From an uncultured virus (IMG/VR IMGVR_UViG_3300010338_001863) (Duplodnaviria > Heunggongvirae > Uroviricota > Caudoviricetes), in IMG/VR virus record IMGVR_UViG_3300010338_001863: DNA of 62,853 nt; one strand, 5' to 3'. Numbering within the stretch: position 1 is the stretch's first letter; each line of letters opens with the position of its first letter. The notes beneath the pieces were generated by a model that saw only the letters and a program-made list of their open reading frames with translations, was not told the origin of the DNA and ran no database searches. Shown piece by piece: positions 1 to 38,305 of this stretch. A program made the position numbers and the translations under genes.

Positions 1-610
1 CATAATCGTTCAATTTACAATTCTTCCCAGCAGGGATAAGCAGCATATCTCCTATCACATCAACAGCCAAATTGGCCGCAGACGGAGGGATTTTGTTTTC
101 AGTATACCTATTGTTGTCGAGCTTAGAATAAACATAATATTTTTCATAATATTTTTCATAAGAAAATTTTCTATATATTATGCGTTTTATAGTTAAATAA
201 CTATTCATATTGTATTCTCTTACCCCTCTTACCCCTCTTGCTTTGACTTTGAAGGGGATTAAATTAGGATAATTTTTCAGGGATATTTTTTCTAAAGTTG
301 GGGATAGATATTCGCCCATATAATAATCTACCTCTCTATCCTCTATACATTTGTTTAATAGCATCAGGAGATTGTCGGAGATAGGCTCTTTCTCCATCCT
401 GCGAAACAAGTTCTCTAAAACTTGCGATGTGCTTACCCCAGAGATAAGTTCAGCGTTTTCCAACAATTCCTGATTAGTCATTGCTTGGAGGTCTTTAGCG
501 TATAGAATACGATGTCCTACCAAGCTTCTGCATGTCTTGCAGAAACACCTGCCTACTAATTCGTGAGCGTCGTATTGGTCATGCAATATCTTTAATTGTT
601 CTTTGGTCAT
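1..610 (-). CDS. HxxYxxH-CxxC family protein A (3'-truncated by window edge; absent from ORF track)
   Basis: ATG at 610 overlaps the TGA of the upstream gene (ATGA), preceded by GGAGG. Manual translation MTKEQLKILHDQYDAHELVGRCFCKTCRSL... stays open to base 1. Confidence 0.8.
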   Translation of the reverse strand, partial: MTKEQLKILHDQYDAHELVGRCFCKTCRSLVGHRILYAKDLQAMTNQELLENAELISGVSTSQVLENLFRRMEKEPISDNLLMLLNKCIEDREVDYYMGEYLSPTLEKISLKNYPNLIPFKVKARGVRGVREYNMNSYLTIKRIIYRKFSYEKYYEKYYVYSKLDNNRYTENKIPPSAANLAVDVIGDMLLIPAGKNCKLNDY

Positions 611-1290
611 GCTTCCTCCCATTGGACTTTAGTGCGTTCCATAAGTATCTTACTAAATCCACCATATGAGATTATTTCTTTTACTTTGTCTATATTGTTG
701 TTGGTATAATTCAAATATAGAGGGCTATTTTTTGCATCCCTAATTTTATCTTGCATGTAGTCCAAAATTTCCTTTACATCGTTAATGTTTCCTTTTATGT
801 TAGAGATTATCCTACACATTTGACTTATATATCTCAATCTCTCCCTTTCTTTATCTATAAAATAGCATATGATTTGTTTTGGTATTTGTATCCCATAGTA
901 ATCTATTTGGGAAAGAATCGCACAATCAAAATTGTCTTTGTAAATTCTTTCTAATTCCTCTTTTGTGGTAATTATCCCTTTGGCTAACTTTAATGCTATA
1001 TTATATGTCTTCTCCTTAATCAATTTATCTATTTCTTCTGAGGTCACATTCTTTTTCAGAAGGAGAGCTTCAAATAAAACATATTGTTCGTTAGCCTTGT
1101 TCTTTATTATCTTTTCTAAGATAAGATTAAAGTCCCCAATCTGTTCAAGAGTTTTCTTGGGAAGGTATTTGGGAGGGATTAGGTTTTTAGCAAATCCACA
1201 ATCCTTACACACCAAATCCCTCGTCCTTGCCTTTATGAAGTCGTGGGAATTATATATTTCATGTAAATTATGTATTTTATTTATATCCAT
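607..1290 (-). CDS. HxxYxxH-CxxC family protein B
   Basis: 227 aa, GGAGG RBS, N-terminus LHEIYNSHDF...VCKDCG. Confidence 0.8.
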   Translation of the reverse strand: MDINKIHNLHEIYNSHDFIKARTRDLVCKDCGFAKNLIPPKYLPKKTLEQIGDFNLILEKIIKNKANEQYVLFEALLLKKNVTSEEIDKLIKEKTYNIALKLAKGIITTKEELERIYKDNFDCAILSQIDYYGIQIPKQIICYFIDKERERLRYISQMCRIISNIKGNINDVKEILDYMQDKIRDAKNSPLYLNYTNNNIDKVKEIISYGGFSKILMERTKVQWEEA

Positions 1291-1291
1291 A

Positions 1292-1537
1292 TTATCCTCC
1301 TTTATCTTCCATTATTTTTTTGTGGAAGATGCTCATTTCTGCGGCTTCTATCTCGCCTTTAGTGTATCCTTTCTTCAGCGTTTTAGATATCATAGTCATA
1401 AACATCCCTGCTTCCTCAGCGGTTATCTTCCCCGATATTGCTAATACTCTGAATATCCCAGCCAGAATTAGTATGTCTTCTTTAGCATTTTTTATTTTTT
1501 TAGTTTTATTATCTATTATTTCTTTTATTTCTTTCAT
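1292..1537 (-). CDS. hypothetical protein
   Basis: 81 aa, AGGAGG RBS, tightly packed in the operon. Confidence 0.7.
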   Translation of the reverse strand: MKEIKEIIDNKTKKIKNAKEDILILAGIFRVLAISGKITAEEAGMFMTMISKTLKKGYTKGEIEAAEMSIFHKKIMEDKGG

Positions 1538-2177
1538 TTCTTCCTCCTTTCCCGAACACGTCGGACAACCCTAAGAATTTCTTCTCTCCCATATCGCTAA
1601 TAGTCAGGAATTCACCAAACTCCTGCTTCATGTAGCTATATAACTTATTACCTCTTACTCTTCTTATTATATGTAGCAAAGAATAAGAAAAGCTTTTCCT
1701 CATACGATTTATCTCTTCGGGGTTAGCTTCTAAGAGGTCGATTATCATTTGCTGGTCTATCTTGTCGATTATGTTTTCTTTGATTATAAAGCTCCACAAG
1801 TCATGCAATTGGGCATATCTCAATATTGGAGTAGTATATATCTTCCTCGTCAAAAATATGCTTACCAGCAATACCCTGTATAGATATATATAATTAGTCC
1901 TGTCGCATTCTTTTATTAGCTCTTCTTGATTGAATGGGATTTTGGAATACAACAGGCTATATAATCTAACAATTAAATTGTTGTCCTTGTTGTTATATAT
2001 CTTAGAGTAGTATTGGTTAGCATCAAAAACTTGAAGCTTTTTCTTTATGTATTTGGGAAGGAGTTCGTATTTAACGAACCGACTCATCTTCCCGCATTCA
2101 CATACTTTACAATGTTTGCATTGAATCATATCGTGAGCATCATATTGGGAATGTAGATTAGCTAAATTATTTTTCAT
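1509..2177 (-). CDS. HxxYxxH-CxxC family protein C
   Basis: 222 aa, AAGGAGG RBS, N-terminus LHSQYDAHDM...CKHCKVCECG. Confidence 0.8.
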   Translation of the reverse strand: MKNNLANLHSQYDAHDMIQCKHCKVCECGKMSRFVKYELLPKYIKKKLQVFDANQYYSKIYNNKDNNLIVRLYSLLYSKIPFNQEELIKECDRTNYIYLYRVLLVSIFLTRKIYTTPILRYAQLHDLWSFIIKENIIDKIDQQMIIDLLEANPEEINRMRKSFSYSLLHIIRRVRGNKLYSYMKQEFGEFLTISDMGEKKFLGLSDVFGKGGRNERNKRNNR

Positions 2178-2188
2178 ATTTCCTCCTT

Positions 2189-2219
2189 AAAGGGAGGGCG
2201 AATCTATCACCCTCCCTTT
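2189..2219 (-). terminator. intergenic stem-loop (terminator or mRNA processing/stabilising hairpin)
   Basis: AAAGGGAGGGCGA / TCACCCTCCCTTT inverted repeat between the VWA gene stop and the next RBS, with only a short T tail. Confidence 0.5.
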
Positions 2220-2227
2220 TGTAATTT

Positions 2228-3367
2228 TTATTTCCTTACAATGTCTCCCATGTTTATTACTTCTCCGAAGGGCGCTGCGCCCCCGTCGGGACTAACCCAG
2301 ATAGTCTTTATCCCTGGGTCTGATTCGGGAAAGTCGCCTAGCAGGTCTGTGAAGTAGACTATCATCTTAGCGTTCTTTTCTTTGGCTAGTTTGAATGCTG
2401 GGCGGAAGTCAGTCCCACCAGCCGCTTTTCTCGTAAACTTCTTCCCAAGCAACCCTCTCGCTGAGAGTATCTTTATCGGCTTCCCAACTATCTCGGTATC
2501 TATTTGGTAGATTTCCTTTGGAGCTGGGATAGACAAAGCTACTCCGACAAACTGGCTAAGCAAGTCATCCTCTATACTGCCCGACACATCCAGGAAGATG
2601 AAGACCTTCCCTTCCGCTTCTCTCTTCTTGCCAGGGATTATCCCTGTCAAGTCAGGGAATCGTCTATTGGGCTTTGTATAGGAAGCTGTGAACCTGTCGG
2701 ACAAAGAGGCTGATATTAAGCTTCTCAGCTTATATTTCCAATTGACTATCTTATGCTGAGCTTCAAGCTGTGAATTAAGCTGGTGGGATAGCTTGCCTTT
2801 ATATTTCTGTGCTATCTCTCTTAACTTGTTCTCCATATCCTTTACGACAGCTTCAGACTCTTCGGAGTTCTCCCATTGGCTGTGGTCGTCCATAGATTTC
2901 TGTCCTTTAATTTTGTCTTTCTTTGCATCCTTAAGCAAGTCTCGGACGTATTCTTCGAACGATTTCCCAAGCTCATATTTTTCGAAAGGTTTCTTTGTGG
3001 GATAAACCGCATCCTTTATTGGGGGATCTCCCAAGATAGAGTTCACAGCCATGTCAGCACCTATATTCTGGATTTCATGGGGGACACCCAAGTTCCTAAG
3101 ATCCTTGTCTCTTAGAAGATGTCCAAGGACTACATGGAGGACTTCATGGGCTAAGACATATCTGAGTTGATAGAAATCAAGCTCTTCTAAAAACTTTCTG
3201 TTTATTAGTAGCTTGATTCTCCTGTCTTTAACCATGACCCCCATGGTTTCTATGATTTCGCTTTCCTCTATATCGAAGAGCATCAAACAATCACCGTAGT
3301 ATTGCATGTCGAATTCTCTATCCATCAGCATACCCTTGATGATTGTCGGTATATTTCCCATTTCCAT
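2228..3367 (-). CDS. metallopeptidase-like (HEXXH) plus VWA domain protein (DUF2201-type)
   Basis: LAHEVLH...NIGADMAVNS N-terminal motif; C-terminal MIDAS motifs FLDVSGS, GGTDFRPAF and YFTDLLG; adjacent to an AAA+ ATPase. Confidence 0.85.
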   Translation of the reverse strand: MEMGNIPTIIKGMLMDREFDMQYYGDCLMLFDIEESEIIETMGVMVKDRRIKLLINRKFLEELDFYQLRYVLAHEVLHVVLGHLLRDKDLRNLGVPHEIQNIGADMAVNSILGDPPIKDAVYPTKKPFEKYELGKSFEEYVRDLLKDAKKDKIKGQKSMDDHSQWENSEESEAVVKDMENKLREIAQKYKGKLSHQLNSQLEAQHKIVNWKYKLRSLISASLSDRFTASYTKPNRRFPDLTGIIPGKKREAEGKVFIFLDVSGSIEDDLLSQFVGVALSIPAPKEIYQIDTEIVGKPIKILSARGLLGKKFTRKAAGGTDFRPAFKLAKEKNAKMIVYFTDLLGDFPESDPGIKTIWVSPDGGAAPFGEVINMGDIVRK

Positions 3368-3379
3368 ACTACCTCCTAT

Positions 3380-3405
3380 GGGAGGGCTGGATAACCAGCC
3401 CTCCC
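3380..3405 (-). promoter_or_regulatory. perfect 11-bp intergenic stem-loop
   Basis: GGGAGGGCTGG-ataa-CCAGCCCTCCC directly upstream of the VWA gene RBS; same GGGAGGG stem base as the 2189 hairpin. Confidence 0.6.
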
Positions 3406-3415
3406 GACTAAAGGC

Positions 3416-4516
3416 TTATTTTCCCATGAGCTGCTGAATTTCCATATTTAACTGAATCATGGCTTCGCTATGTTTAGCGGAGAACTCGGGAGCGACTTTG
3501 ATGATTGCGTTGAATGTCTTACGTTTGTCCTGCCCGACCATCTTCTTAAACATGGATATCGCAACCTCTTCCAAGACCGTATCTTCAAGGAATTTCTTGA
3601 TTGATTTAGCCACATCGTCCTTGAAGGTCTCGCCAGATATTTCAAAGGCGAAGTCGTACGCCGTTGCTATTGCCTTATGTTTAAACTCTTTTTGATGCTT
3701 GGCGTATCGTTCCTGAAGTTTCTTATCCTTCAGGTACTTGCCGCTGAGGATATCCTTAGCCGAGACAGGCGGCTCTGGGTCTGCCAAGAAGCTCTCGAAC
3801 GCTACCGCAGCCTCTGCTCCAACAGAGCCTGACAAGATGTTCGAGACGCTGGAGCTAATTCCAGCTTCCTCGTGCATCTTGAGAGCCAACCAGCCTCTCT
3901 CCCAGTTTCTGGGATTAGGAACCTGATTGAACTCCGTAACGTTCTTGATGTTATTAACTTGGCAGAAGAATTTGGGATAGGTCAGCAAAAACTGAACTAT
4001 CTTCTCGTCTATCCCTCTTTTCTTCGCATAATCAACCCATTCACCCACCTCAGCTTTGACTCTGATTATGTGGGCTCTGGATATGAAAGCTTCACCCAGA
4101 ATCTCTATGACATCCGCTTCGCTAATCGGATTAGCGCAAGCGACTATCGTATGGAGCTCAGGGTTGGATTTATACCCAACCGAACCTCTACCTTCAATTA
4201 TCTTGAAGACAGCTTGGATAGAGGATATGTGTCCTCTATTAGGTTCGTCGAAGTTGATTATCGCCTTCTCGTTGTAGGGAGGCAGAACCTTACATATGTA
4301 TTCGCCTGACGATGTCGGGATACCTGTGAGGTCTGCGGGTTCAACAAGAGCGGTTCTGATGTTGTAGGGTTTTGCTCCAACCTCAGCCGCTACCTGTTCA
4401 ACCATTTGCGTCTTCCCTATTCCGGGGACGCCGACCATCATCAGAGTGATTTTTTCTTTCGACTCTGCGATGGCTTTGAGAAGCCTTTTGGCTTCCATCA
4501 AGCTATACTCTTTCAT
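3416..4516 (-). CDS. MoxR-like AAA+ ATPase
   Basis: Walker A GVPGIGKT, DLTGIP, Walker B NFDEPNR, ACANP sensor, PNPRNWE; paired with the VWA gene. Confidence 0.85.
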   Translation of the reverse strand: MKEYSLMEAKRLLKAIAESKEKITLMMVGVPGIGKTQMVEQVAAEVGAKPYNIRTALVEPADLTGIPTSSGEYICKVLPPYNEKAIINFDEPNRGHISSIQAVFKIIEGRGSVGYKSNPELHTIVACANPISEADVIEILGEAFISRAHIIRVKAEVGEWVDYAKKRGIDEKIVQFLLTYPKFFCQVNNIKNVTEFNQVPNPRNWERGWLALKMHEEAGISSSVSNILSGSVGAEAAVAFESFLADPEPPVSAKDILSGKYLKDKKLQERYAKHQKEFKHKAIATAYDFAFEISGETFKDDVAKSIKKFLEDTVLEEVAISMFKKMVGQDKRKTFNAIIKVAPEFSAKHSEAMIQLNMEIQQLMGK

Positions 4517-4529
4517 TCGTACCTCCTAT

Positions 4530-4841
4530 TTATTTTACTATTATTATAATCTCTCTGCCTTTTTCTACAAGCTCGGGAATTACACAAGATTGCAATCTAT
4601 GCCCTTCCCTTATGACAGCGATTTTGTTCTTCGGGATGTCATTAATATCGACAGTTGGACCCCATAAGTCTACAACGTCTTTTTTTAATTTCATGACATC
4701 CTGCTCACAAAGATATCTTTTCCCTTTGATATTTTTTGTGGCAACCTTCTTTGTAAGAACACTTACAAGAAGTTTGTATTTTGAAACCCCGTATTTATTC
4801 ATGGCTTGGGTTTCGGTAAGCCATGTCTTTCTCTGTTTCAT
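4530..4841 (-). CDS. putative HTH (excisionase/MerR-like) DNA-binding protein
   Basis: WLTETQAMNKYGVSKYKL...KGKRYLCEQDV pattern; GGAGG RBS. Confidence 0.5.
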   Translation of the reverse strand: MKQRKTWLTETQAMNKYGVSKYKLLVSVLTKKVATKNIKGKRYLCEQDVMKLKKDVVDLWGPTVDINDIPKNKIAVIREGHRLQSCVIPELVEKGREIIIIVK

Positions 4842-4849
4842 TTTGTCCT

Positions 4850-5062
4850 CCTATATAGTTAATTTTAAATCCTCTAAATAATCTAACAGCTCTACATCTC
4901 CTTGAAGGATAGCGACATCCTTCTTGAAGATTATAACTATTGTATCATTTTTTTCAGGAGATAAAACTTCCTCATCCTTTTTACGATGGAGTAGCCTTTC
5001 TCCAATATCTTCCCCATAATTTTCTTTGGGGGATATTTCAATGTTACTTGGTCTATTATCAT
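4850..5062 (-). pseudogene. small gene split by a -1 frameshift at an A7 run
   Basis: ATG at 5062 gives MIIDQ...FYLLKK and stops 3 codons later; the -1 frame continues NDTIVIIFKKDVAILQGDVELLDYLEDLKLTI* up to the next RBS. Confidence 0.45.
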
Positions 5063-5445
5063 AACTCCCCCTTTATATATCTATCCAACAAGGATTTTTT
5101 TAATTCTTTCCTCTGCTGAGCATACTCTTCATATATCTCAGGCATAGCCTTAAGGAATTGGGGAGACATAAGAAGAGTGGGATTCTTCTTGAAGAGATTG
5201 TCTAAAGCTTGTTTTGGATTATCAAGCTTAGAAATCAAGAAGAATATCCCAGCCAAGTCGCCAGACTCTATCTTAGAATCGACGACATCTTGGAGAGTAT
5301 GAAGTTTCAATTTATTTATTTCTTCTATAAGCATTTCATAGTCTCCCCAAGTGTTTATATGATAACACGAGCATATAAAACTATGTGGGTCGTGCCCATA
5401 GTTCTCGTGTATCTTAAACAAGTTTACAAGATTTATGTCTATCAT
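5059..5445 (-). CDS. HxxYxxH-CxC family protein E (divergent)
   Basis: 128 aa, N-terminus IHENYGHDPHSFICSC; ATGA overlap with neighbour. Confidence 0.7.
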   Translation of the reverse strand: MIDINLVNLFKIHENYGHDPHSFICSCYHINTWGDYEMLIEEINKLKLHTLQDVVDSKIESGDLAGIFFLISKLDNPKQALDNLFKKNPTLLMSPQFLKAMPEIYEEYAQQRKELKKSLLDRYIKGEL

Positions 5446-5822
5446 ACCTCTACCTCCTCTATCCTGTCAAGGATAAGTGTTGTAGGAGTCCAATCCATAT
5501 TATTGGGTTGGACTAAGAAGTTATTCATAAGCAAGTGGGTTTTGCTAACCCATATAAGATTGCCTATGAAAACTTTACCTTTCTGAGGCTTTTCTTTTGA
5601 GTTATCTTGGTAATATTTCCCTTCCTCAGATAGGTTTCTCTTGCCTGATTTAGGAGAGTATACTATCCTAATAACGCTTCCATCCATTACAGGATAGAAA
5701 CGGAAACGGGAATCGTCCATCTCAGAATCAAGTTTTATACTTTTCCCGTCCATAACAACCTGCCTTTGTGTATATAAGCAGGAGAAGAATTTTTTAAGTT
5801 CTTCTTTGTTTGTTATTTTCAT
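5442..5822 (-). CDS. hypothetical protein
   Basis: 126 aa, GGAGG RBS, ATGA overlaps at both ends. Confidence 0.75.
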   Translation of the reverse strand: MKITNKEELKKFFSCLYTQRQVVMDGKSIKLDSEMDDSRFRFYPVMDGSVIRIVYSPKSGKRNLSEEGKYYQDNSKEKPQKGKVFIGNLIWVSKTHLLMNNFLVQPNNMDWTPTTLILDRIEEVEV

Positions 5823-6265
5823 TTTACCTCCTTTGCTACATCTACCCCTTCCAATATCCTTAGGTAGATGTTTATTAAATCTTGCTCATTAGGTATGTAA
5901 TCTTCATTGGTAGTTATACCAACTCTCATTGTAACATCCCCTTCGGAATTGTAGGGGAGTTCTTTCGGGAACACATACCTATGTAAGGTTATAAGAGAAT
6001 CATCCGTCAATACCTTAAGGACTGATTTGCTCTTATAGACCTTAATCCCATCTTTTTCGAAAGCCAGTTCTAACGGCGTAGATTCCTGTTCCATCGTAGG
6101 AATCTCGTAGTTAGTCATCTGGTTTACGACGTGGGACAATCTTGTTATCGGGACCCCGTTCTTATTTATCAGCGTGAAGTGAGCCCCGCAATGACAGACC
6201 TTGTTCACGAATTCGTGGCTCTTGTATGTACTGTGAAGCAAGGCTGTGGATGGGTCTATCTTCAT
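5819..6265 (-). CDS. HxxYxxH-CxC family protein D
   Basis: 148 aa, N-terminus LHSTYKSHEFVNKVCHCG; AGGAGGT RBS. Confidence 0.8.
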   Translation of the reverse strand: MKIDPSTALLHSTYKSHEFVNKVCHCGAHFTLINKNGVPITRLSHVVNQMTNYEIPTMEQESTPLELAFEKDGIKVYKSKSVLKVLTDDSLITLHRYVFPKELPYNSEGDVTMRVGITTNEDYIPNEQDLINIYLRILEGVDVAKEVK

Positions 6266-6286
6266 AACACCTCCTATTTTGTAAAT

Positions 6287-6775
6287 TTATGTTCCCCAAG
6301 TATCATATTTAAATTTACAATATTTCTCATATGCTTGGTAGTCTTCTATTATGGGGTTGTATTCCCCAACAATTTCTACTTTATATACAACCTTATATTT
6401 ATCCTTATAATAATAATAGACATTGGCTAAAGTATTGGCTTTTATTTCGTCGGGGAAATATTTTATATCTACATACCCAAATCTTTCATGGTCTCTATCG
6501 TCGTTAGAAAAACCTAAAGATGCTTTATCAGTTACCCACTTGCCCCCACCTAAAGCTAAACTAGTTCCAAATTCATTACTAAAAAAAACATATTTAAAAT
6601 GTTTTTTAACATCAAAATTTTCTAATTTTTCTAAAAAGTTATCCTTATTGAGATCTTTCTCAGTCTCAATAAGTTTCTCTAAAACCTCTTCTCCGATATC
6701 TAATATCAGATAATCCCCGTTATGGAATATTATTTTTTTAGCGTATTCTAATTTTTCCACATGTATTTTGTTCAT
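6287..6775 (-). CDS. hypothetical protein
   Basis: 162 aa, AGGAGG RBS, more AT-rich than its neighbours. Confidence 0.75.
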   Translation of the reverse strand: MNKIHVEKLEYAKKIIFHNGDYLILDIGEEVLEKLIETEKDLNKDNFLEKLENFDVKKHFKYVFFSNEFGTSLALGGGKWVTDKASLGFSNDDRDHERFGYVDIKYFPDEIKANTLANVYYYYKDKYKVVYKVEIVGEYNPIIEDYQAYEKYCKFKYDTWGT

Positions 6776-6831
6776 AATAACCTCCTATATTAATATTACT
6801 TTATCTTTAATTTTATCTGTATACTCTTCCT

Positions 6832-7080: not shown

Positions 7081-7089
7081 TTCGCCTCC

Positions 7090-8211
7090 TTATAAATTCC
7101 CTTCTTTTATTTTTTCTTGGAACCCATATACTGCATTCCATACATCAACAAATGTCCAATAGTTCATCTTATCCCCGAATATGTAATGCAATAATGTTCC
7201 TTGCCAATAATATCCTTTCCCGACATCAAGCTTAAACATTTTTAGCTTGATAAGTTTTGACTTCTCTTGTTTTATTTTTTCGTCCAATTCCTCATTTTTT
7301 TGCTTAAGTTCTTTATATAACTTAAGCAATTCCGAATATGAAAGGTTCTCATATTCGGTTCCTTTGAAGTATACCTTAATAGCCTCTTCAATACTAATTT
7401 CTTTATTGATATACTCCTTATGATTAGATTTATGTTGGTCGTAAGGGTCATCGAAGCATTCATCGTCATCATCAACACAATATGGGAGTATTGATTCCAT
7501 ACTCCAATACGACTCTTCGGAGGAAGAAACTTCTAAAATAGCTTTGTCCCCCTTATGTTTAATTTTAAGGAATACGGAGTTAGCTAAAGATTTTAAAGAA
7601 TCTTCTGCAACTCCTTTTATTTCATTTAACTTAGTGTAGGTGGACAAAGATTCCTCCCACAGATTTTTCAATTCTTGGAGGTTAACATTTTTAACCTCCT
7701 CTATCATCCCATCAAGCCCAAGACATTCTTCTACGGTTTTGATGGGAGTTTCGGTCGGGAGGGATTCTAAATTTCCCCAACCGATTTTGCTTTCCTCAAA
7801 ATATCCACAGGAGACACATTTATATACCAATTTGTCTCCTTGGATATTTTTCCCAAAGTTATGTGGAGATTTTACCTCCTGCATTTCTCCACATTGTTTA
7901 CACACCTCTATTTTGAGGTGCGTTTCAGAGTCTATTATCTTAGACTCTTTTTGAAGGAATACGTGGGGATTTTCTTTCCCACATACTTTGCAGCTCTCCC
8001 CACACTTCAGGTCCGAACAATCATGGACCAGAAGCCCGATAATGGGGACTTTCTTCCCCTTCTTATCGGTTATTTCCTTGACTACAAATCCTTCGTAGTC
8101 AAGGTTTGCATCATAGGCATATTCTTTGCCTATGATGATGAAAGGGCTGGGAATATACCAGCCCTTGTCTCCCTTCTTGGGGGAATATTTTTCCCCATTA
8201 AAAAAAACCAT
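7090..8211 (-). CDS. multi-zinc-ribbon protein with coiled-coil C-terminus
   Basis: 373 aa with repeated CxxCG...H units (CKVCG, CKQCG, CVSCG); GGAGG RBS. Confidence 0.7.
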   Translation of the reverse strand: MVFFNGEKYSPKKGDKGWYIPSPFIIIGKEYAYDANLDYEGFVVKEITDKKGKKVPIIGLLVHDCSDLKCGESCKVCGKENPHVFLQKESKIIDSETHLKIEVCKQCGEMQEVKSPHNFGKNIQGDKLVYKCVSCGYFEESKIGWGNLESLPTETPIKTVEECLGLDGMIEEVKNVNLQELKNLWEESLSTYTKLNEIKGVAEDSLKSLANSVFLKIKHKGDKAILEVSSSEESYWSMESILPYCVDDDDECFDDPYDQHKSNHKEYINKEISIEEAIKVYFKGTEYENLSYSELLKLYKELKQKNEELDEKIKQEKSKLIKLKMFKLDVGKGYYWQGTLLHYIFGDKMNYWTFVDVWNAVYGFQEKIKEGNL

Positions 8212-8237
8212 TCTTCCCTCCTTCGAGGAGGATGTAC

Positions 8238-8784: not shown

Positions 8785-9162
8785 TTAAGGCTGGATTTTA
8801 ATCCAACCTTGGTGGCGGAATACCGCCACCTTTTTGACACTCCCGTCAGGGAGTGTCTCTTCTTTTGACTCCCTGACGGAATGGGCGTAATATAAAGTTA
8901 CGCCCATGTCCTTAGCCTTTCGGCTAAGGACAGCCTGAAAGGCAGGCGACCCTCCAGGCTGATAGACCTCGCCACCCTCCTTGATGGCGAGGGAGCAGAG
9001 GTCAGAGGCCAAAGCCTCTAACTCTGACACCTCAGCAGAGGTGTTGTTCAACCTCTGCTGAAGCTCCTTTCCACCTTCTAAGGTGGAAAGCAGTGAGAAC
9101 CCTTCGCCCTGCTCGGGCAAAGGGGTATGGGCTGATGCCCATATCTTTTTCATATTTCCCAT
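8785..9162 (-). CDS. csx20: Csx20-like protein, candidate cyclic-oligoadenylate ring nuclease
   Basis: 125 aa. The motifs SAH, ELQ..LNN, VYQPGG and YYAHSVRESKEETLPDGSVKKVAVFRH match my recollection of the Csx20 pattern (FSH...ELQ..WSNI...QGD...YATT.R.S.E....DG..K...F.H). Not verified by search. Confidence 0.65.
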   Translation of the reverse strand: MGNMKKIWASAHTPLPEQGEGFSLLSTLEGGKELQQRLNNTSAEVSELEALASDLCSLAIKEGGEVYQPGGSPAFQAVLSRKAKDMGVTLYYAHSVRESKEETLPDGSVKKVAVFRHQGWIKIQP

Positions 9163-11024: not shown

Positions 11025-11240
11025 TTATATATATTTTCTGACTATTTCTGATTTTTTCTTTATTTCGTAGAAAGCTAGTTTTAAGCTTCTACTTGATGCT
11101 GATAGTGGGGTTTGGGAGTTAGGGAGTGCTATTGAGATTGTATATTCTTTATTAGAAGGGTTAAAAGAGATTTTTAGGAAATCTCCTTTAAGTTTGAGGT
11201 CGATTTTGACATTTCTTATTATATCTTCTATATAGTCCAT
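11025..11240 (-). CDS. hypothetical protein
   Basis: 71 aa, AAGGAG RBS. Confidence 0.6.
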   Translation of the reverse strand: MDYIEDIIRNVKIDLKLKGDFLKISFNPSNKEYTISIALPNSQTPLSASSRSLKLAFYEIKKKSEIVRKYI

Positions 11241-12031
11241 AAATCTCCTTTGATAGAATTGAAATATTGTTCTACTGGCTGATGCAAGTAATATAATTTA
11301 AGTAGAGCTAGGAATGCTTTAGTGGTTGATTTTAAGTCTACTTCCAATTGTTGGATTTTGGAATCTGACTTAGGGAACTTGACGATGAAGGCTTTAGTTG
11401 GGTAGAGGTTGTATGTTTCTTTGAGTGCTAGGGCGTAGGCTGCTACTTGGTAGAAGTTGTGGACTTTAAGTTTGTTAGTTGTTTTCCAATCGAGTAGGAT
11501 GAGGTTGTTTTGTTGATCTGAAGCTAATGCGTCGAGCCTACCTCCGAACCCTAGGGATGGGGAAGCAACAGGGATATCTCCTGACTGGAATGTAAGGTTG
11601 AGTGAGTGAGTCCAGTTGAGGAAGTTTTTGAAGGCTGCTTGAGCTTGCTGAGAAAGCTGGGGTATTGGTTTTAGGTTGATTAGGGCGTCTATCGCGTTGT
11701 GACATTCAGTTCCGACGTCTGCTGCTTCTTTCTTCAGTCTATCTGGGGACTTGAGAGCTGAGGAGTAAGCTTCTTCTAAATCTTCTTCTGAGAGGCTGAC
11801 CCCTATGGAGAGTTTGGATTCTAGGGCTGACTTCATCGAATCTAAGGCTGTTTTCTTACTCCAATAGGAAAGAGCTCCAGACTTCCCGGCGTCGAGCACT
11901 TCCAGAATAGCTGACACAGATGGGAGCTTTTGGTTTGCTACTTTGTAGAAATGACAAGTCTTAAATCCTACTCGCTCCTCAGAGTAATCGATCTGGAAAT
12001 TTGGGGACAAATTGATCAGAATCCCTCCCAA
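11228..12031 (-). CDS. PD-(D/E)XK superfamily exonuclease
   Basis: Motifs LPSVSAIL, GTECH, GGRLDAL, LLDWKT and QVAAYA. Confidence 0.85.
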   Translation of the reverse strand: MGGILINLSPNFQIDYSEERVGFKTCHFYKVANQKLPSVSAILEVLDAGKSGALSYWSKKTALDSMKSALESKLSIGVSLSEEDLEEAYSSALKSPDRLKKEAADVGTECHNAIDALINLKPIPQLSQQAQAAFKNFLNWTHSLNLTFQSGDIPVASPSLGFGGRLDALASDQQNNLILLDWKTTNKLKVHNFYQVAAYALALKETYNLYPTKAFIVKFPKSDSKIQQLEVDLKSTTKAFLALLKLYYLHQPVEQYFNSIKGDLWTI

Positions 12032-12797: not shown

Positions 12798-12844
12798 CAA
12801 TTCCTCCTGTTAGGAAAAGTAAGAAAGATCTTGGGATACTTCTG

Positions 12845-13210
12845 TCAGGAATGCCCAGATCCTCTTTTAGGAAATATCTTGTCTGCCAAATCCAACAATT
12901 CCTGGAAAGTCAACCCGCATTCCCTGCAATTGTCGTCCACTGGACATTCAAACAAGAGAGGGCATTTCCCTATCGTTTCGAATTCTTGCTTGTACAATTC
13001 CAAAGCTTCCAACTTCGGCATGTCGTACAGCTCCATGAATACTTCCAGCCATCCATCGGGTTTCCCGGCGGATACGTTGCATTCAAAGCAAACACCCTTC
13101 TTTTCTCCAAAGTATTTGCCTCCAAGCTTTTTTATTTCTTTTTTTATCTGCCTGGCTTTCATCCCATCTGGGATTCCAAGTTCTTTCCCGCATTTTTCAC
13201 ATTTAATCAT
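12845..13210 (-). CDS. zinc-finger protein
   Basis: CEKCG, CFEC and CP....CP....CREC motifs; no SD, start lies just after a -10 box. Confidence 0.7.
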   Translation of the reverse strand: MIKCEKCGKELGIPDGMKARQIKKEIKKLGGKYFGEKKGVCFECNVSAGKPDGWLEVFMELYDMPKLEALELYKQEFETIGKCPLLFECPVDDNCRECGLTFQELLDLADKIFPKRGSGHS

Positions 13211-13218
13211 AAAAGATA

Positions 13219-13247
13219 ATTATACTATTTTTTTTGAGAAAAGTCAA
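13219..13247 (-). promoter_or_regulatory. sigma70-type promoter
   Basis: TTGACT-17 nt (with A8)-TATAAT, 8 nt before ATG 13210. Confidence 0.85.
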
Positions 13248-13253
13248 GTATTT

Positions 13254-13856
13254 TTATAAGTCAATCCCTTGTTGTTCATCTATGTTTTTTTTCTTAAAAA
13301 AATCTATAATTTTTTTAAATATATTTTTTCTTTCTTCTTTTTTTTGGAAATGCTCTAACATATATTTTGCCGCAGAAGAAATAAAATTTTCGTATTCGGC
13401 CAATCCATTAAAAATAAAAATTTCTCTTACAAACAATTCCCCATTATGAAAAATTATCTTATTTTGTATTACGAAATCTCTAGCTAAAACATAGTTAAAG
13501 AAAAAATCATAAACATACTCTTCATCTAAAAACTTCCCGGTTTTTATAAAATATTCGTCCCTAAGTTTTTGAGTTATTTTAATCAAAACTTTTACCCCTA
13601 TGGAATCATTATCTTTTATTTTTGGTCGATTTATTAATTCCAACAATGTTTTAGCTTGATCATAATTTATATATAATATATCGCTATATATTCTTTTGTT
13701 TTTTACATAATATAGTCCGCATTTTACTAATTCTTTCATTTTATCTATATCACTAGTTCTGTCTTCAATTGCCCTATTAACTAAATATCTATCTTCGACA
13801 AATAGTCTCTTTCTTATATCGTCATGTATTTTATGATATATCCCTATGTCTATCAT
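13254..13856 (-). CDS. hypothetical protein
   Basis: 200 aa ORF in operon orientation. Confidence 0.7.
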   Translation of the reverse strand: MIDIGIYHKIHDDIRKRLFVEDRYLVNRAIEDRTSDIDKMKELVKCGLYYVKNKRIYSDILYINYDQAKTLLELINRPKIKDNDSIGVKVLIKITQKLRDEYFIKTGKFLDEEYVYDFFFNYVLARDFVIQNKIIFHNGELFVREIFIFNGLAEYENFISSAAKYMLEHFQKKEERKNIFKKIIDFFKKKNIDEQQGIDL

Positions 13857-13919: not shown

Positions 13920-14366
13920 CTAGAAAATATCTTCTTCTTCAAGATATACCAAAATAGTTTTTGCTTTTATTTTATGGCTTTTAAAAATGTTAAATAACTT
14001 CTTGGTTATAATTTCTTTGTAATTATCTTTCCATTTTAAACAAAATATTTCACTTCTGAATTCAATCTCATCTTCATAAAAAATTACCTGATCAAAAGAA
14101 ATTTCCCCAATATTTTTTATTTTGATATTGTTCTTATTCCATGGAGTCCCAGGGATTTTATACCATTTAGTTTTTGAAACGATATCAGTTACTATTAATA
14201 TGCTTACTTTGTGCATAAATTATGAGATGTCATCATAAGACTCTTTATATATGCTATATTTTTCATTGGTTATTTTTTCAATTATTTCTTTTCTTGAAAA
14301 ATAACGATTAGGATTTTCACCTAAAAATTTTATAATCATATGTCGAAGTTCTTCATTATTATTCAT
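13920..14366 (-). pseudogene. two in-frame ORFs (48 aa and 98 aa) separated by one TAA; possible nonsense-disrupted gene
   Basis: ATG 14366 MNNNEELRHMIIKFLGENPNRYFSRKEII...DIS* is followed in the same frame by F-MHKVS...; ATG 14216 has no SD. Confidence 0.45.
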
Positions 14367-15366
14367 AGTTAGGATTTAATACCTTCATACTTAATTTCCT
14401 TTTTATCAAATCACAAAAAGTATATTTTTTAGGCCTTACAACAATCCCTTCTCTTTGGGTATTGGTATTGGCATAACAGCCGGAGCTCATAGACACTAAA
14501 TAATCAATATTCCAATCTTTCTTGAATTCTCCCTCATAAATTAATGGGACTGTCTTTAATCCTAATTCTTTACAAATAGAAACAATTTCGTCAAATCCCA
14601 AATATTTTTGTCCAGGGACATCAAAGATATCAAATACCATAAAATCTATTCCTCTTATCCCAAGCGGGTTCGTTTGTATCTTTTCTCCAAATATTTCGCC
14701 TTGTATAGCTATTTCCATTTTAGAATATTTTAACTTGTCTCCTATCCTATATTTCTTCTCTATTTCCCAATAGGCATTCTCTCCGTATTTTATTATATAA
14801 TTTCTGCTACATACATTAAATTTTGCTTCATAATAAAAGAATGTCGCTGATGTCCCATCTATTTTTTCTGTTATATATATATCTCCATCAATCTTTTTAA
14901 ATTCATCTAGTAATTCTGGCTTTGACTGGAGATTGATTTCATCTGTTTTTGGGATATAATATGGCATAGGGCCTTGCGGTTCTCCTTTAATAGTTATATC
15001 TATAGGTTTTTCCCATTTTTGAATTCCAAGGTCAGAAGTAACGTCGTCTCCTTTCTGTACTTCTTTTTTAAGCAAACTTAATGGAAGAATCAAACCAACT
15101 GATAATACTCCCTTCATTTTGACAGGTCTCAATCTGTTCCCAACTACCCCGTTATAGAATTTAGGTTTGCCCTTAGTTAAAAATGGAGCTACATCATGAG
15201 GTACCCAAGTATCAGGCTCAACAAATATTACTAAATCTCCCGGTTTATATAATCCTTTTTGAACTATTACTTTCCATCCCTTACCTTCTAATTCTGCAAG
15301 TTCTATTCTATCAGCACCAGATATCGGGATAAGATTTTTTATCGTTTGGATTGTCGCTAAGTTCAT
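14359..15366 (-). CDS. RNA ligase (Rnl2-like, DRB0094 family)
   Basis: N-terminal GADRIE domain; nucleotidyltransferase motifs EKIDGTS, QGEIFG, FMVFDI, REGIVVR and KVLN. Confidence 0.9.
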   Translation of the reverse strand: MNLATIQTIKNLIPISGADRIELAELEGKGWKVIVQKGLYKPGDLVIFVEPDTWVPHDVAPFLTKGKPKFYNGVVGNRLRPVKMKGVLSVGLILPLSLLKKEVQKGDDVTSDLGIQKWEKPIDITIKGEPQGPMPYYIPKTDEINLQSKPELLDEFKKIDGDIYITEKIDGTSATFFYYEAKFNVCSRNYIIKYGENAYWEIEKKYRIGDKLKYSKMEIAIQGEIFGEKIQTNPLGIRGIDFMVFDIFDVPGQKYLGFDEIVSICKELGLKTVPLIYEGEFKKDWNIDYLVSMSSGCYANTNTQREGIVVRPKKYTFCDLIKRKLSMKVLNPNYE

Positions 15367-15691: not shown

Positions 15692-15959
15692 TCAATACTT
15701 TATATTTTTGGTATTTAATGTACAAAAACAAGGACCCTTGTCTTTTGTAGAACAATTTTTACAAGAGTCATAAGCTTCGGTACCATTTGTGGTGGTATAT
15801 TGGATAAAAGAAATAGAATTAAAAGAATCTAAAAAAGAATTTATTTTGTTTTTCATTTCATCTGCTTCTTTTTTTTTGTTTGGATTTATTTTTATATTTT
15901 AATTTCACAAGCTCATCTATCATGAAATGAAAAGCTATTTTTATATTTTCTATTTCCAT
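15692..15959 (-). pseudogene. small Cys-cluster gene split at an A9 run (or two tiny ORFs)
   Basis: MEIENIK...KSKQKK stops shortly after the A9 run; the shifted frame continues EADEMKNK...CKNCSTKDKGPCFCTL...*. Confidence 0.4.
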
Positions 15960-37800: not shown

Positions 37801-38305
37801 TAAAATATACGAAGATATAAACAAAAACAAAAAACATATTGAAGTTAAGGTAGATAATACGTTAGAAAAAAGGCGTTTTAATGATTTCTTGCGTCTTTTT
37901 GTTGAAAATATCGTTAAATCTGTTTCTCCTATTGCTAAATATTTTGGAGATATAAGTATTGTGTTAGAAAAATTCAAGAAAATGCTTATTGAATTGGACA
38001 ACGATTTGGACAAGAAATCGAGTTTATATTTAAAAAAAGATAGATATATAGAAGGTAGTTTAAAGTTCTTTTATGTTAAAGGAGAAGGTTTTAGAAGTTC
38101 TAAAATTATTTGTAAGCAAGGAAATAAGTCGGTTAGGACTTCTTTATTTAATGTTTTACCTACTGATGTTATGCTCGATATTGTTGATAATAAAGATACC
38201 AGGTTTTCTCCAGAAGACTTAGTTAATTTATTAAAAAATAAATTTTCTTCAATTGAAGAGTTCTCTCAGTGGGTAAAAAGAAATTTTAAAAACAGGAGGA
38301 AATAA
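34805..38305 (+). CDS. prohead (capsid maturation) protease with ~950-aa C-terminal extension
   Basis: N-terminal ~210 aa contain PNANAD.F, KDHN, AIGKI, SMGCSV, CSICGN..YCEH and ELSLV..PAD; located upstream of scaffold and capsid. Confidence 0.8.
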   Translation: MFKKISSASNFGVIEIENSKELISVTSNNKVVSFKYDPENFVYFRCRAITADVPNANADYFPEEEIKKSYKTFIGVGLYKDHNADSVSKAIGKILWAEYIPEGKYVELIGCIDKKLDPDTARRVTSGIIDSCSMGCSVTQSVCSICGNVAYSPKEYCEHINPINGMKGRILADGKMVYEINKGIQFTELSLVTSPADKTARLFEVVASAKKNNDSNKKPGMILSVDEFFENSKKISTFDKAIELYQKIKDNAYGVVSPVSSDYILDDKKKQAISKMLQFFFALNHPIYKLAFHYRNLTESEVLKNFGDKIDSALKNIILGNLSADMEKDKQKDEDNFESTFSNEFQIAVSILNANGIFSPFPVTSDKRRLFLRFANYASPNQHFYFYKNYLRNGLFVTLPGLMPYIRECYNMLYIKNDTSEQIFNMLENLNRHYYSLKSIENKNWVNNEMIHKKIETIYNELDKYFSEIGYDKETKFDSNYIKNMVLSEYSGFPKMCVNSKRIFYKREVSLKNILDFVAKFKVLLASDRFSNIWDNSDFNAISGQFDNLEKEYIFNFGMRNIKDEKLKKFYDDIRNMMFKKSRDISIEKIKSFLPTNFGISLNFEDINYSLLADSVINVDFLGLLNYSRYYNRINDILLEEDTEKIQEVKSEDKRSPIPRLNTIHTFLSGIGNKKEYENEILRSTIEAIKSDVEKYYIDVENAVWMSPIEKKYKEPKIQDKKSIIKELIKEQLRKMSDKNTVSFNIGIMKNIYDILKNNEKEIDRDIVENIIEDVLNVGGKTIRMYYLNKRKALDGAKESLSSISNNINNIIRERKNNTDAIKKLLFNISEINGYESFLKNIISDLDVRENYLGYPTDFVEWLNKYDIGFGAKSKSYKVIIDKCDDILKDMLYSTYNAIAYLSKISGEKAPDTTNRVINGSNILDRIIFVGKKIHEMYEWASNISEKFLANTKKQESSVNLDQIMYYYTKLYDALSKSIPKDIGSFDNQKMVVIKNELNKIYEDINKNKKHIEVKVDNTLEKRRFNDFLRLFVENIVKSVSPIAKYFGDISIVLEKFKKMLIELDNDLDKKSSLYLKKDRYIEGSLKFFYVKGEGFRSSKIICKQGNKSVRTSLFNVLPTDVMLDIVDNKDTRFSPEDLVNLLKNKFSSIEEFSQWVKRNFKNRRK

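What the first reader, a model, noticed from the sequence alone, without database searches (positions are those of the whole stretch)
1..6265. Five-member HxxYxxH-CxxC tagged protein family surrounding a MoxR AAA+/VWA-metallopeptidase pair: candidate undescribed system
Seen: five genes in one operon begin with the same ~30-aa motif L-H-x2-Y-x2-H-[DE]...C-x(1-2)-C. They are <1..610 LHDQYDAHE..CFCKTC, 607..1290 LHEIYNSHD..CKDC, 1509..2177 LHSQYDAHD..CKVCEC, 5819..6265 LHSTYKSHE..CHC and the divergent 5059..5445 IHENYGHD..CSC. Their C-terminal bodies show no obvious similarity. Three lie downstream and two upstream of the AAA+/VWA pair. Established: MoxR ATPases use VWA partners as substrate-selecting chaperones, often for metal-centre insertion or complex remodelling. 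Inference: the HHCC motif is a zinc-binding docking tag linking interchangeable adaptors or effectors to the AAA+/VWA-peptidase core, possibly to remodel or degrade host targets early in infection. The family may continue beyond the window edge.
Basis: partly seen in the sequence, partly recalled or inferred. Interest (0 to 1): 0.82.

Follow-up and report, generated by a model that had tools for sequence, protein, structure and literature searches.

The report
Expanded phage gene family, new metal-binding motif
Five neighbouring phage genes that start with the same short His/Tyr/His/Cys/Cys motif are part of a rare, undescribed gene family with at least twelve tandem copies, but nothing yet shows that it works with the ATPase and peptidase genes beside it.

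Summary
All five minus-strand ORFs carry L/I-H-x2-Y-x(1-2)-H ... C-x(1-2)-C within 10-30 residues of a start codon preceded by a strong Shine-Dalgarno site. An HMM built only from members of other phages ranks exactly these five first among 781 window ORFs (E 1.7e-8 to 1.8e-4, next 0.023).

The family is larger than reported. A 97.5%-identical contig (L001) shows seven more copies beyond the window's left edge, giving 12 in about 13 kb. A distant phage (L007, ATPase 38% identical) has eight, on both sides of its ATPase/VWA pair.

An exhaustive search of 1.84 billion protein representatives found 30 true-looking hits, 14 of them new, always with the motif at the N-terminus. Pfam, PHROGs, NCBIfam, PADLOC, PDB sequences and fold searches gave no match. 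H, Y, H, C and C are invariant in 34 sequences.

The link to the MoxR-like ATPase and the DUF2201 VWA-metallopeptidase rests on synteny alone. It is seen in 2 of 4 ATPase lineages, and the closest ATPase relatives (51-57% identical) carry a different paralogue array instead.

My reading: a lineage-specific expansion of accessory proteins that share a small, probably zinc-binding, N-terminal module and have divergent bodies. The partner of the module is unknown.

The parts
1..610 (-). Family member A, 5' part. The gene runs about 149 nt past the window edge and is 252 aa in L001. Motif LHDQYDAHE..CFCKTC.
   Evidence: ORF and motif. Full length from L001 9469-10227 and the variant P0002. Full-length paralogue F (29% identity over 230 aa). 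HMM from other phages E 1.8e-4.
607..1290 (-). Family member B (227 aa). Motif LHEIYNSHD..CKDC.
   Evidence: left-out E 2.4e-6; 3.1e-7. Shares 39-41% identity over 54-61 aa with C after the motif. One strain (X4) has indels of 2, 12, 1 and 5 nt in this gene, consistent with the 43-aa truncated variant P0034.
1292..1537 (-). Interspersed 81-aa ORF without the motif, function unknown.
   Evidence: No Pfam or PHROG hit.
1509..2177 (-). Family member C (222 aa). Motif LHSQYDAHD..CKHCKVCEC.
   Evidence: 1.1e-6; 3.5e-6. AlphaFold2 of residues 1-62 gave pLDDT 77: helix 5-11, hairpin 17-19/24-26, helices 37-48 and 53-61. The body weakly resembles HEAT/TPR solenoids (TM 0.45-0.50).
2228..3367 (-). DUF2201_N metallopeptidase fused to a DUF2201 VWA-like domain (379 aa).
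   Evidence: Pfam PF13203 55.8 bits (cut-off 23.2) and PF09967 59.3 bits (cut-off 26.4). phrog_1314 E 6.7e-49. In 40 aligned homologues H78, H83, D260, S262 and S264 are invariant and H74 and E75 nearly so.
3416..4516 (-). MoxR/AAA_5-like AAA+ ATPase (366 aa).
   Evidence: phrog_1297 E 8.1e-41. Pfam AAA_3, AAA_5 and bpMoxR all below their cut-offs. Walker A G29-T36 and D90/E91 invariant in 11 homologues.
4530..4841 (-). Interspersed 103-aa ORF without the motif, function unknown.
5059..5445 (-). Family member E (128 aa), divergent motif IHENYGHDPHSFICSC.
   Evidence: Not retrieved by the 4-sequence leave-one-out HMM (E 0.57). Retrieved by the HMM from 22 members of other phages (8.7e-5, rank 4 of 781).
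5442..5822 (-). Interspersed 126-aa ORF without the motif. It overlaps D and E by 4 nt each.
5819..6265 (-). Family member D (148 aa). Motif LHSTYKSHE..VCHCG.
   Evidence: 1.9e-4; 1.7e-8, best of 781. The body weakly resembles PsbP/Tli4_C-like proteins (feature score 0.90 with 128 shared features; TM 0.50-0.55): a lead only.

Best explanation
The five ORFs belong to a lineage-specific tandem expansion of an undescribed phage protein family. There are at least 12 copies in this phage, 8 in a distant relative, and probably at least 4 on a third contig.

The family is defined by an N-terminal module: h-x2-[LMIA]-H-x2-Y-x(1-2)-H-x(3-17)-C-x(1-2)-C.

I infer three things.
- The two His and two Cys hold one metal ion, most likely zinc. 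The site pins a short helix to a beta-hairpin at the start of a helical N-terminal domain.
- This module is a common handle that binds one shared partner. The partner may be phage or host and is not identified.
- The rapidly diverging bodies give each copy its own target. Some bodies look like helical solenoids and at least one looks alpha/beta. The copies would then be accessory host-interaction proteins, each individually dispensable.

Shown: the family, its size, its invariant residues, its N-terminal position, the divergent bodies, the breakage of one copy in a natural strain, and its rarity.

Inferred: metal binding, the handle-plus-variable-body logic, and the accessory role.

The adjacent MoxR-like ATPase and VWA-metallopeptidase are one candidate partner, not an established one.
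For: Family reality:
- Leave-one-out and cross-phage HMMs retrieve the members.
- The shuffle control excludes chance.
- H, Y, H, C and C are invariant in 19 and then in 34 aligned sequences.

Expansion:
- 12 members lie in L001 and 8 in L007. L008 has 1, plus a partial second motif.
- 4 of the 10 new proteins looked up list a longest contig of 12,667 bp, which suggests one shared contig.

True N-termini: AGGAGG-like sites lie about 4-7 nt before all 20 starts examined.

No known family:
- 0 of 5 members hit Pfam or PHROGs.
- Of 34 members scanned against Pfam at E<=1, no family was matched by more than 1.
- 0 of 12 hit NCBIfam.
- 1 of 12 gave a spurious weak hit in PADLOC.
- There were 0 PDB sequence hits at E<=10.
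- No fold match was found.

Structure:
- The 62-aa model has pLDDT 77, with a helix, a hairpin and further helices.
- In paralogue H, residues 1-105 are confident (pLDDT 74-93) and the rest is poor.

Divergent bodies: only A-F, H-I, G-H and B-C are alike by BLASTP among the 19 bodies compared. C and D resemble different fold classes, weakly.

Dispensability: gene B carries frame-breaking indels in run X4, while gene order is otherwise colinear in three runs.

Rarity: 33 hits in 1,835,955,588 representatives. Sixteen are the query set or close variants, 14 are new, and 3 are long repeat proteins that I set aside without fetching.
Against: - No experiment or coordinate check shows metal binding. 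I could not read the model's coordinates, so the geometry of the four ligands is untested.
- The His-His spacing of 5 residues does not put both on one face of a continuous helix.
- The Cys spacing varies between C-x-C and C-x2-C.
- The handle-plus-variable-body idea is an analogy. Simple paralogue divergence, with the N-terminus under the strongest constraint, would give the same picture. Subfamilies A-F, G-H-I and B-C are homologous beyond the motif, as that view predicts.
- No host, expression time or partner is known.
- The one RNA run laid gave contigs only inside the VWA gene.
Confidence: 0.45

Rival explanations
1. The motif is a docking tag that brings interchangeable adaptors, effectors or substrates to the neighbouring MoxR-like ATPase and VWA-metallopeptidase. 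The pair then remodels or cleaves them or their bound targets.
For: - Members flank the pair on both sides in two lineages whose ATPases are 38% identical: window/L001 and L007/L008.
- In both, the VWA gene is followed closely by a run of members. In L007 a 151-aa ORF without the motif lies between them.
- The upstream gene 8785..9162 is also conserved in L007 126-506, so the whole module is syntenic.
- The VWA protein has an intact HExxH and an intact DxSxS metal-ion site.
- In a third lineage (L004/L003) a different paralogue array sits at the same place next to the pair. Paralogue arrays beside this pair therefore recur.
Against: - The loci were fetched by ATPase homology, so the co-occurrence is ascertainment-biased.
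- 2 of 4 ATPase lineages with flanking DNA lack the family: L004/L003 at 51-57% identity and L010 at 25%.
- VWA relatives are present in 188 phage records. The family has about 30 representatives among 1.84 billion proteins.
- The acidic residue after the second His is not conserved in the wider family.
- Published passages propose a virion-assembly role for this kind of pair in jumbo phages, not host remodelling (PMC7824862, passages read).
Confidence: 0.15
2. The family is an expansion of small zinc-finger nucleic-acid-binding proteins, either specific transcription factors or DNA/RNA-binding proteins. The conserved module or the basic bodies bind nucleic acid.
For: - A precedent exists. Passages in PMC7824862 describe about 35 copies of a zinc ribbon in Bacillus phage G, proposed to be transcription factors or structural DNA-binding proteins.
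- Many bodies are strongly basic, with net charges of +25 (I), +16 (H), +15 (G), +14 (C) and +14 in 100 aa (M).
- The genes lie in the block that holds an RNA ligase and a PD-(D/E)XK exonuclease.
Against: - The conserved module itself is about neutral, with mean net charge +0.4 and a range of -7 to +3 over 34 members.
- Some members are acidic: D -4, E -4, q2 -7.
- No helix-turn-helix or other DNA-binding family was detected.
- For sequence-specific factors one expects the DNA-reading part to vary and an effector part to be shared. That is not obviously the pattern here.
- Lysine-rich proteins are normal in AT-rich genomes.
Confidence: 0.2
3. The N-terminal module is a targeting or processing signal. 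It would send diverse cargo proteins into the capsid for injection, in the manner of the short N-terminal capsid-targeting sequence of T4 internal proteins (recalled, not from a call), or mark them for cleavage by a phage protease.
For: - The conserved part is always at the extreme N-terminus with variable cargo behind it.
- The phage encodes an unusually large protein with a prohead-protease domain at 34805..38305, and a metallopeptidase next to the array.
Against: - The genes are on the opposite strand from, and far from, the structural block at 19-62 kb.
- A folded, probably metal-binding module integrated into a confident 105-residue domain is unlike a short linear leader.
- No conserved cleavage site follows the motif in the alignments.
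Confidence: 0.07
4. There is no real family. The shared motif would be a chance resemblance or low-complexity effect in AT-rich ORFs.
For: The motif is short, E deviates in spacing, and the 4-sequence leave-one-out HMM did not retrieve E.
Against: - The shuffle control gave a mean of 0.004-0.016 against 3-4 observed.
- Cross-phage HMM retrieval put all five in the top 5 of 781.
- 14 independent new members carry the same five invariant residues at the N-terminus.
Confidence: 0.01

Closest known systems
MoxR AAA+ ATPase with a vWA protein carrying an N-terminal metallopeptidase, as described for group 2.2 jumbo phages (PMC7824862, passages read)
   Same: The window's 3416..4516 and 2228..3367 are this kind of pair. 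One is a MoxR/AAA_5-like ATPase (phrog_1297). The other is DUF2201_N peptidase plus DUF2201 VWA (phrog_1314), with HExxH and DxSxS intact.
   Different: That paper proposes virion assembly and processing. The passages I read do not mention an associated expanded family. Here the pair sits in a non-structural, opposite-strand block and is flanked by paralogue arrays.
Lineage-specific expansion of a zinc ribbon (about 35 copies) in Bacillus phage G (PMC7824862, same passages)
   Same: Many copies of a small Cys/His module protein in one large phage, function unknown.
   Different: A zinc ribbon has two Cys-pair knuckles. This module has one helix-borne H-x2-Y-x2-H and a single C-x(1-2)-C, with no Pfam zinc-ribbon hit shared by members (1 of 34 at E 0.083). 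I did not compare the phage G proteins directly.
RavA-ViaA and other MoxR/VWA chaperone pairs (PMC3893208 and PMC10585395, abstracts seen in the listing)
   Same: An AAA+ MoxR ATPase working with a VWA cofactor that selects client complexes.
   Different: Those clients are respiratory complexes, not an array of tagged paralogues. ViaA has no peptidase domain. No client tag of this kind is described in the abstracts I saw.
Zinc-binding anti-sigma (ZAS, H-x3-C-x2-C) domains and retroviral integrase HHCC N-terminal domains (motifs recalled; the listing shows where HHCC is used in print)
   Same: N-terminal His/His/Cys/Cys zinc sites that stabilise small helical domains used for protein binding or multimerisation.
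   Different: The spacing does not fit either one. Here it is H-x5-H, then 3-17 residues, then C-x(1-2)-C. No member matches Pfam zf-HC2 or integrase zinc-binding models.
Viral multigene families with one conserved docking domain and variable binding domains, such as poxvirus ankyrin/PRANC proteins and T4 internal proteins with a capsid-targeting leader (recalled, not from a call)
   Same: A conserved terminal module, a variable remainder, tandem copies and rapid turnover.
   Different: There is no sequence or fold relation, and the partner of the module here is unknown.

Membership tests
New H-Y-H-C-C N-terminal module family (defined here) | Invariant H, Y, H, C, C in the order H-x2-Y-x(1-2)-H-x(3-17)-C-x(1-2)-C | tested here: met
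   Invariant in 19 of 19 sequences and 34 of 34. All five window ORFs carry it. E has a one-residue shorter or three-residue longer Y-to-H spacing.
New H-Y-H-C-C N-terminal module family (defined here) | Motif lies within about 40 residues of a supported translation start | tested here: met
   The first His lies at residue 9-20 in the 20 members with DNA in hand. AGGAGG-like sites lie about 4-7 nt upstream of all 20 starts. In 30 of 33 exhaustive-search hits the match begins by residue 16.
New H-Y-H-C-C N-terminal module family (defined here) | Retrieved by a profile that does not contain the sequence or its own phage's copies | tested here: met
   The five window ORFs are the top 5 of 781 with an HMM from 22 members of other phages (E 1.7e-8 to 1.8e-4).
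New H-Y-H-C-C N-terminal module family (defined here) | Binds one metal ion through the two His and two Cys | not testable with these tools
   Model coordinates are not readable. This needs metal analysis of purified protein.
MoxR-type AAA+ ATPase (Pfam AAA_3 / AAA_5 / bpMoxR), for 3416..4516 | Pfam score at or above the gathering cut-off | tested here: not met
   AAA_3 22.9 against 27, AAA_5 19 against 22, bpMoxR 18.3 against 27. The L007 orthologue does pass AAA_5 (33.1 against 22) and AAA_3 (31.4 against 27). phrog_1297 E 8.1e-41. I therefore call it MoxR-like rather than a proven MoxR.
MoxR-type AAA+ ATPase, for 3416..4516 | Walker A GxxGxGK[ST] and Walker B acidic pair | tested here: met
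   GVPGIGKT in the sequence. G29, G32, G34, K35, T36, D90 and E91 are invariant in 11 homologues.
DUF2201_N metallopeptidase + DUF2201 VWA-like protein, for 2228..3367 | Both Pfam domains above cut-off, HExxH, and a DxSxS metal-ion site | tested here: met
   PF13203 55.8 (cut-off 23.2) and PF09967 59.3 (cut-off 26.4). H74 and E75 are nearly invariant. H78, H83, D260, S262 and S264 are invariant in 40 sequences.
Zinc-binding anti-sigma domain (Pfam zf-HC2; H-x3-C-x2-C, motif recalled) | H-x3-C-x2-C spacing and a Pfam match | tested here: not met
   The second His is 3-17 residues from the first Cys, and 24 of 34 members have C-x-C. 0 of 34 members match PF13490 at E<=1.
Zinc ribbon | Two Cys-pair knuckles on two hairpins | tested here: not met
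   Only one Cys pair is conserved. 1 of 34 members gave a weak Zn_ribbon_RanBP hit (E 0.083).
Retroviral-type HHCC N-terminal domain (H-x3-7-H-x23-32-C-x2-C, motif recalled) | Ligand spacing | tested here: not met
   H-x5-H fits, but the His-to-Cys gap is 3-17 residues, not 23-32, and C-x-C predominates. No Pfam integrase zinc-binding hit.
   Present beside the pair in 2 lineages (L001/L002, L007/L008) and absent in 2 (L004/L003, L010/L013). The contigs of the 14 new members could not be fetched, so the reverse test was not possible.
   This needs pull-down or co-expression. See Tried and rejected for the one computational attempt.

The most novel reading that the evidence does not exclude
The H-Y-H-C-C module is a dedicated recognition handle for the phage's own MoxR-like ATPase and VWA-metallopeptidase. 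Phages of this clade would then keep a remodelling or processing machine next to a fast-evolving magazine of clients or adaptors. The magazine is the H-Y-H-C-C family in two lineages and an unrelated ~350-aa family in a third, with ankyrin-repeat proteins added in one. This would be a viral counterpart of adaptor-based proteolysis or chaperone systems, with swappable client families.
Probability: 0.15. Interest if true: 0.8.

Novelty: new variant of a known kind. Interest (0 to 1): 0.55.

Why it matters
Large phages often carry expanded families of unknown proteins, and few have a defining feature that can be tested. This one has a sharp signature of five invariant residues. It has a probable metal site, a clear domain boundary, at least 12 tandem copies and natural knock-out variants.

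It is therefore a tractable entry point into how an uncultivated group of myoviruses diversifies accessory proteins. Laid runs labelled hot-spring, oil-field and subsurface metagenomes carry the region.

It also sharpens a question about the widespread but uncharacterised phage MoxR-like/VWA-metallopeptidase pair. In three related lineages the pair is bordered by paralogue arrays of different families. That is either a hotspot effect or a hint at what the pair acts on.

Tried and rejected
- **Complex prediction.** VWA protein (40-row alignment) with the 62-residue module (34 rows) scored 0.00 in both runs against a mark of 0.32. There was no verdict and the controls were not run. This is evidence neither way.
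- **Known phages.** blastn of window 1-8000 and tblastn of C against 50,697 phage records gave no match.
- **IMG/VR scans.**
  - The VWA protein alone gave nothing.
  - The ATPase alignment gave only the distant L013, which is the same contig as L010.
  - An exact 36-nt stretch of the window gave nothing.
  - A 7-sequence subfamily alignment gave 104 pattern matches, none confirmed.
  - Two degenerate motif patterns gave 10 and 1 loci. All look like chance matches: they are not at ORF starts and have HMM E of about 1e-4 or weaker even though the pattern forced the motif.
  - One of these, L016 9112-10077, carries a motif-like stretch at the C-terminal end of a 322-codon frame. I left it unresolved.
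- **Fold searches.** The 62-aa model gave no Foldseek PDB hit at E<=0.001, no VIA-align hit at Z>=2 among 48,161 chains, and no BFVD hit at E<=0.001. The 242-aa H model gave no Foldseek hit at E<=0.001 and a best Z of 3.9. These do not show that the fold is new.
- **Profile comparison.** The L004/L003 ~350-aa family compared with two subfamilies of the motif family gave probabilities of 0.2% and 0.1%.
- **RNA evidence.** The only RNA run (X20) gave two exact contigs inside the VWA gene and one poor match. This is no proof of transcription and says nothing about the motif genes.
- **Promoter and terminator scan of 1-9000.** Promoter-like sites were at chance level (28 against 24.7). Terminator-like sites lay mostly on the non-coding strand. 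Nothing follows for operon structure.
- **RNA genes.** No tRNA and no Rfam family in the window.
  - No whole genome was held.
  - The loci were not in held genomes.
  - The 34-row alignment was too diverse for the search for related loci.
- **Other window ORFs considered as members and rejected.** 15692..15856 and the minus-strand frame 12848..13219 have Cys pairs but no H-x2-Y-x2-H.

Full report
**What is in the window**

Bases 1-18,000 are coded almost entirely on the minus strand. The rest is a plus-strand structural block of a tailed, contractile phage. It holds a terminase, portal, major head protein, tail sheath, baseplate wedge and a 1166-aa protein with a prohead-protease domain. The protein tables list a 124,853-bp contig for the window's own proteins, so the window is about half of a large phage genome.

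The finding's region holds ten co-directional ORFs. In order of transcription they are:
- D, 6265-5819
- a 126-aa ORF
- E, 5445-5059
- a 103-aa ORF
- an AAA+ ATPase, 4516-3416
- a DUF2201_N plus DUF2201 protein, 3367-2228
- C, 2177-1509
- an 81-aa ORF
- B, 1290-607
- A, 610 to beyond the edge

Gaps are small and three junctions overlap by 4 nt. This layout is operon-like, but the promoter and terminator scan added nothing.

**The observation**

All five named ORFs start with the motif.

| Test | Result |
|---|---|
| Shuffle of the first 50 residues of 217 ORFs, 2000 times | Mean 0.004 strict and 0.016 relaxed hits; 3 and 4 observed, with A not countable |
| Leave-one-out HMMs from four sequences, against 781 six-frame ORFs | A, B, C and D each recovered as the best non-training hit (E 3.6e-4 to 1.1e-6); E not recovered (0.57) |
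| HMM from 22 members of other phages | Exactly the five ORFs first: D 1.7e-8, B 3.1e-7, C 3.5e-6, E 8.7e-5, A 1.8e-4; next 0.023, a Cys-rich ORF without the His/Tyr part |

So all five are members, and E is a spacing variant.

One caveat applies to the last test. The 14 library proteins among those 22 were found with a profile that contained the window members. The eight L007 and L008 rows were found with a window-only profile.

Every one of the 20 members for which I hold DNA has an AGGAGG-like site about 4-7 nt before its ATG. The motif is therefore at the true N-terminus. The record's own gene call for D starts at an internal Met and misses it (P0004).

**The family is much larger**

I searched for relatives of the ATPase and scanned metagenome contigs with their alignment. 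That gave L001, which matches the window with 256 mismatches in 10,078 ungapped positions and extends 6.6 kb past the window's left edge.

The motif HMM finds seven more members there, F, G, H, I, J, K and M. That makes 12 in about 13 kb.

L007 is a 13.7-kb contig whose ATPase is 38% identical. It carries eight members: three upstream of its ATPase/VWA pair and five downstream. L008 carries one more plus a partial duplicate.

In the alignment of 19 N-termini, H, Y, H, C and C are the only invariant columns.

An exhaustive HMMER search of 1,835,955,588 representatives with that alignment returned 33 proteins at E<=0.001:
- 16 are the query set or close variants of it.
- 14 are new.
- 3 are long proteins with several internal matches. 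I set these aside as repeat artefacts without fetching them.

In the 30 true-looking hits the match begins within the first 16 residues. With the new members added, the same five residues stay invariant in 34 of 34 sequences.

Two Cys spacings occur, C-x-C-G in 24 of 34 and C-x2-C in 10 of 34.

Four of the ten new proteins looked up list a longest contig of 12,667 bp, which suggests a third array.

**Not a known family**

| Library or method | Result |
|---|---|
| Pfam, five window members | Nothing |
| PHROGs, five window members | Nothing |
| Pfam, 34 members at E<=1 | 16 families, each hit by one member; best E 0.015 |
| NCBIfam, 12 members | Nothing |
| PADLOC, 12 members | One spurious weak hit |
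| PDB sequences, profile search at E<=10 | Nothing |
| Paper searches | No description of such a family in phages |

**Structure leads**

AlphaFold2 on C residues 1-62 with the 34-row alignment gave pLDDT 77. It predicts a helix carrying the first His and the Tyr, a hairpin ending in the Cys pair, and then two helices.

On paralogue H with an 8-row subfamily alignment, residues 1-105 are confident (pLDDT 74-93) and the rest is poor. The motif therefore caps a helical N-terminal domain rather than being a free peptide.

Neither model found a convincing structural neighbour. That shows neither novelty of fold nor the opposite.

I could not read coordinates, so the ligand geometry is unchecked.

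**Bodies**

BLASTP among 19 bodies links only four pairs:
- A-F: 29% identity over 230 aa
- H-I: 33%
- G-H: 21%
- B-C: 39-41% over 54-61 aa

Two library proteins, P0041 and P0043, belong to the G/H/I subfamily, so subfamilies cross phage lineages.

The ESM Atlas models weakly resemble helical solenoids for C (TM 0.45-0.50) and PsbP/Tli4_C-like alpha/beta proteins for D. These are leads only.

The module is about neutral in charge, while many bodies are strongly basic.

**Turnover**

I laid contigs of three DNA runs on window 1-9000. Gene order from A to D is colinear at roughly 90-99% identity in runs labelled hot-spring, oil-field and subsurface metagenomes.

One strain (X4) has indels of 2, 12, 1 and 5 nt inside gene B. 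This fits the 43-residue truncated B variant P0034. B is thus broken in a natural relative.

**The link to the ATPase/VWA pair**

The pair itself is of a known kind. The VWA protein passes both Pfam cut-offs and keeps HExxH and DxSxS. The ATPase is MoxR-like by phrog_1297 and by its Walker motifs, though it falls below the Pfam cut-offs.

Passages of PMC7824862 describe such MoxR/vWA-metallopeptidase pairs in jumbo phages and propose a virion-assembly role.

For a functional link there is only synteny. The arrays flank the pair in two lineages that have diverged to 38% ATPase identity, within a module whose upstream gene is also conserved.

Against it:
- The loci were found through the ATPase.
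- L004 (51% identical ATPase, 16.5 kb) and L003 (57%, 4.4 kb) have no member. They have six and two tandem copies of an unrelated ~350-aa family at the same place.
- L010 has none.
- VWA relatives occur in 188 phage records, whereas the motif family is extremely rare.

The pair therefore works without the family. The reverse dependence is untested.

The recurrence of different paralogue arrays, and of three ankyrin-repeat proteins in L007, next to this pair is unexplained. It may mark a hotspot for gene gain, or it may hint at what the pair acts on.

**Verdict**

The family is real, rare and undescribed.

The proposed system is a legitimate but weakly supported hypothesis, at about 0.15.

My best reading, at about 0.45, is a lineage-specific expansion of accessory proteins. 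They share a small, probably zinc-stabilised N-terminal handle and have diversified bodies.

The main rivals are a zinc-finger nucleic-acid-binding expansion (0.2) and a targeting or processing signal (0.07).

Noticed in passing
L004 7701-14536 and L003 719-3012: Six (L004) and two (L003) tandem paralogues of an unrelated ~350-aa family with no Pfam or PHROG hit. They lie directly after the VWA gene in L004 and before the ATPase in L003, the same position the motif family occupies in the window's phage.
   Followed up: partly
L007 1688-3532, 5556-7049, 7036-8859: Three large ankyrin-repeat proteins (Ank_2 E down to 1.5e-171) that share an N-terminal M[KE]YYK... stretch. They lie between motif-family genes and the ATPase.
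   Followed up: partly
window 34805..38305 (+): A 1166-aa protein whose first ~250 residues match prohead-protease families (phrog_18299, phrog_2774). The rest is unassigned, which makes this an unusually large protease fusion.
   Followed up: no
window 2001-4000 and 8001-10500: G+C is 0.44-0.49 here, against 0.24-0.39 in most of the window. The first stretch is the ATPase/VWA pair, whose composition differs from the motif genes beside it (0.34). The second holds only short ORFs and many hairpins with T-runs (8370-8857). It has no tRNA or Rfam match.
   Followed up: partly
window 7090..8211 (-) and 12848..13219 (-): Two Cys-pair-rich proteins with several C-x2-C knuckles. They are not members of the motif family. 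The second overlaps a plus-strand ORF (12831..13259) that a longest-ORF call prefers.
   Followed up: partly
window 14359..15366 (-) and 11228..12031 (-): An RNA ligase (PF09414, 105.5 bits, with a PHA02142 OB domain) and a PD-(D/E)XK exonuclease (phrog_298). Both lie in the same minus-strand block.
   Followed up: no
L001 12928-13200: The stretch upstream of member J contains a direct duplication that reads ...NQQTKEDKMN... twice in frame. The sequence just before the start codon (..KEDK-M..) is also shared by G, H and J, which suggests recent tandem duplication that included the ribosome-binding region.
   Followed up: no
L016 9112-10077 (+): An IMG/VR contig with a motif-like stretch (KLHHIYTQHDTVKLICACG) at the C-terminal end of a 322-codon frame. 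It is probably a chance product of the search pattern, but it was not resolved.
   Followed up: no
L001 15728-16342: A GP88-family protein (PF17338, 98.4 bits) and a small C-x2-C protein (15433-15690) lie between members K and M of the array.
   Followed up: no
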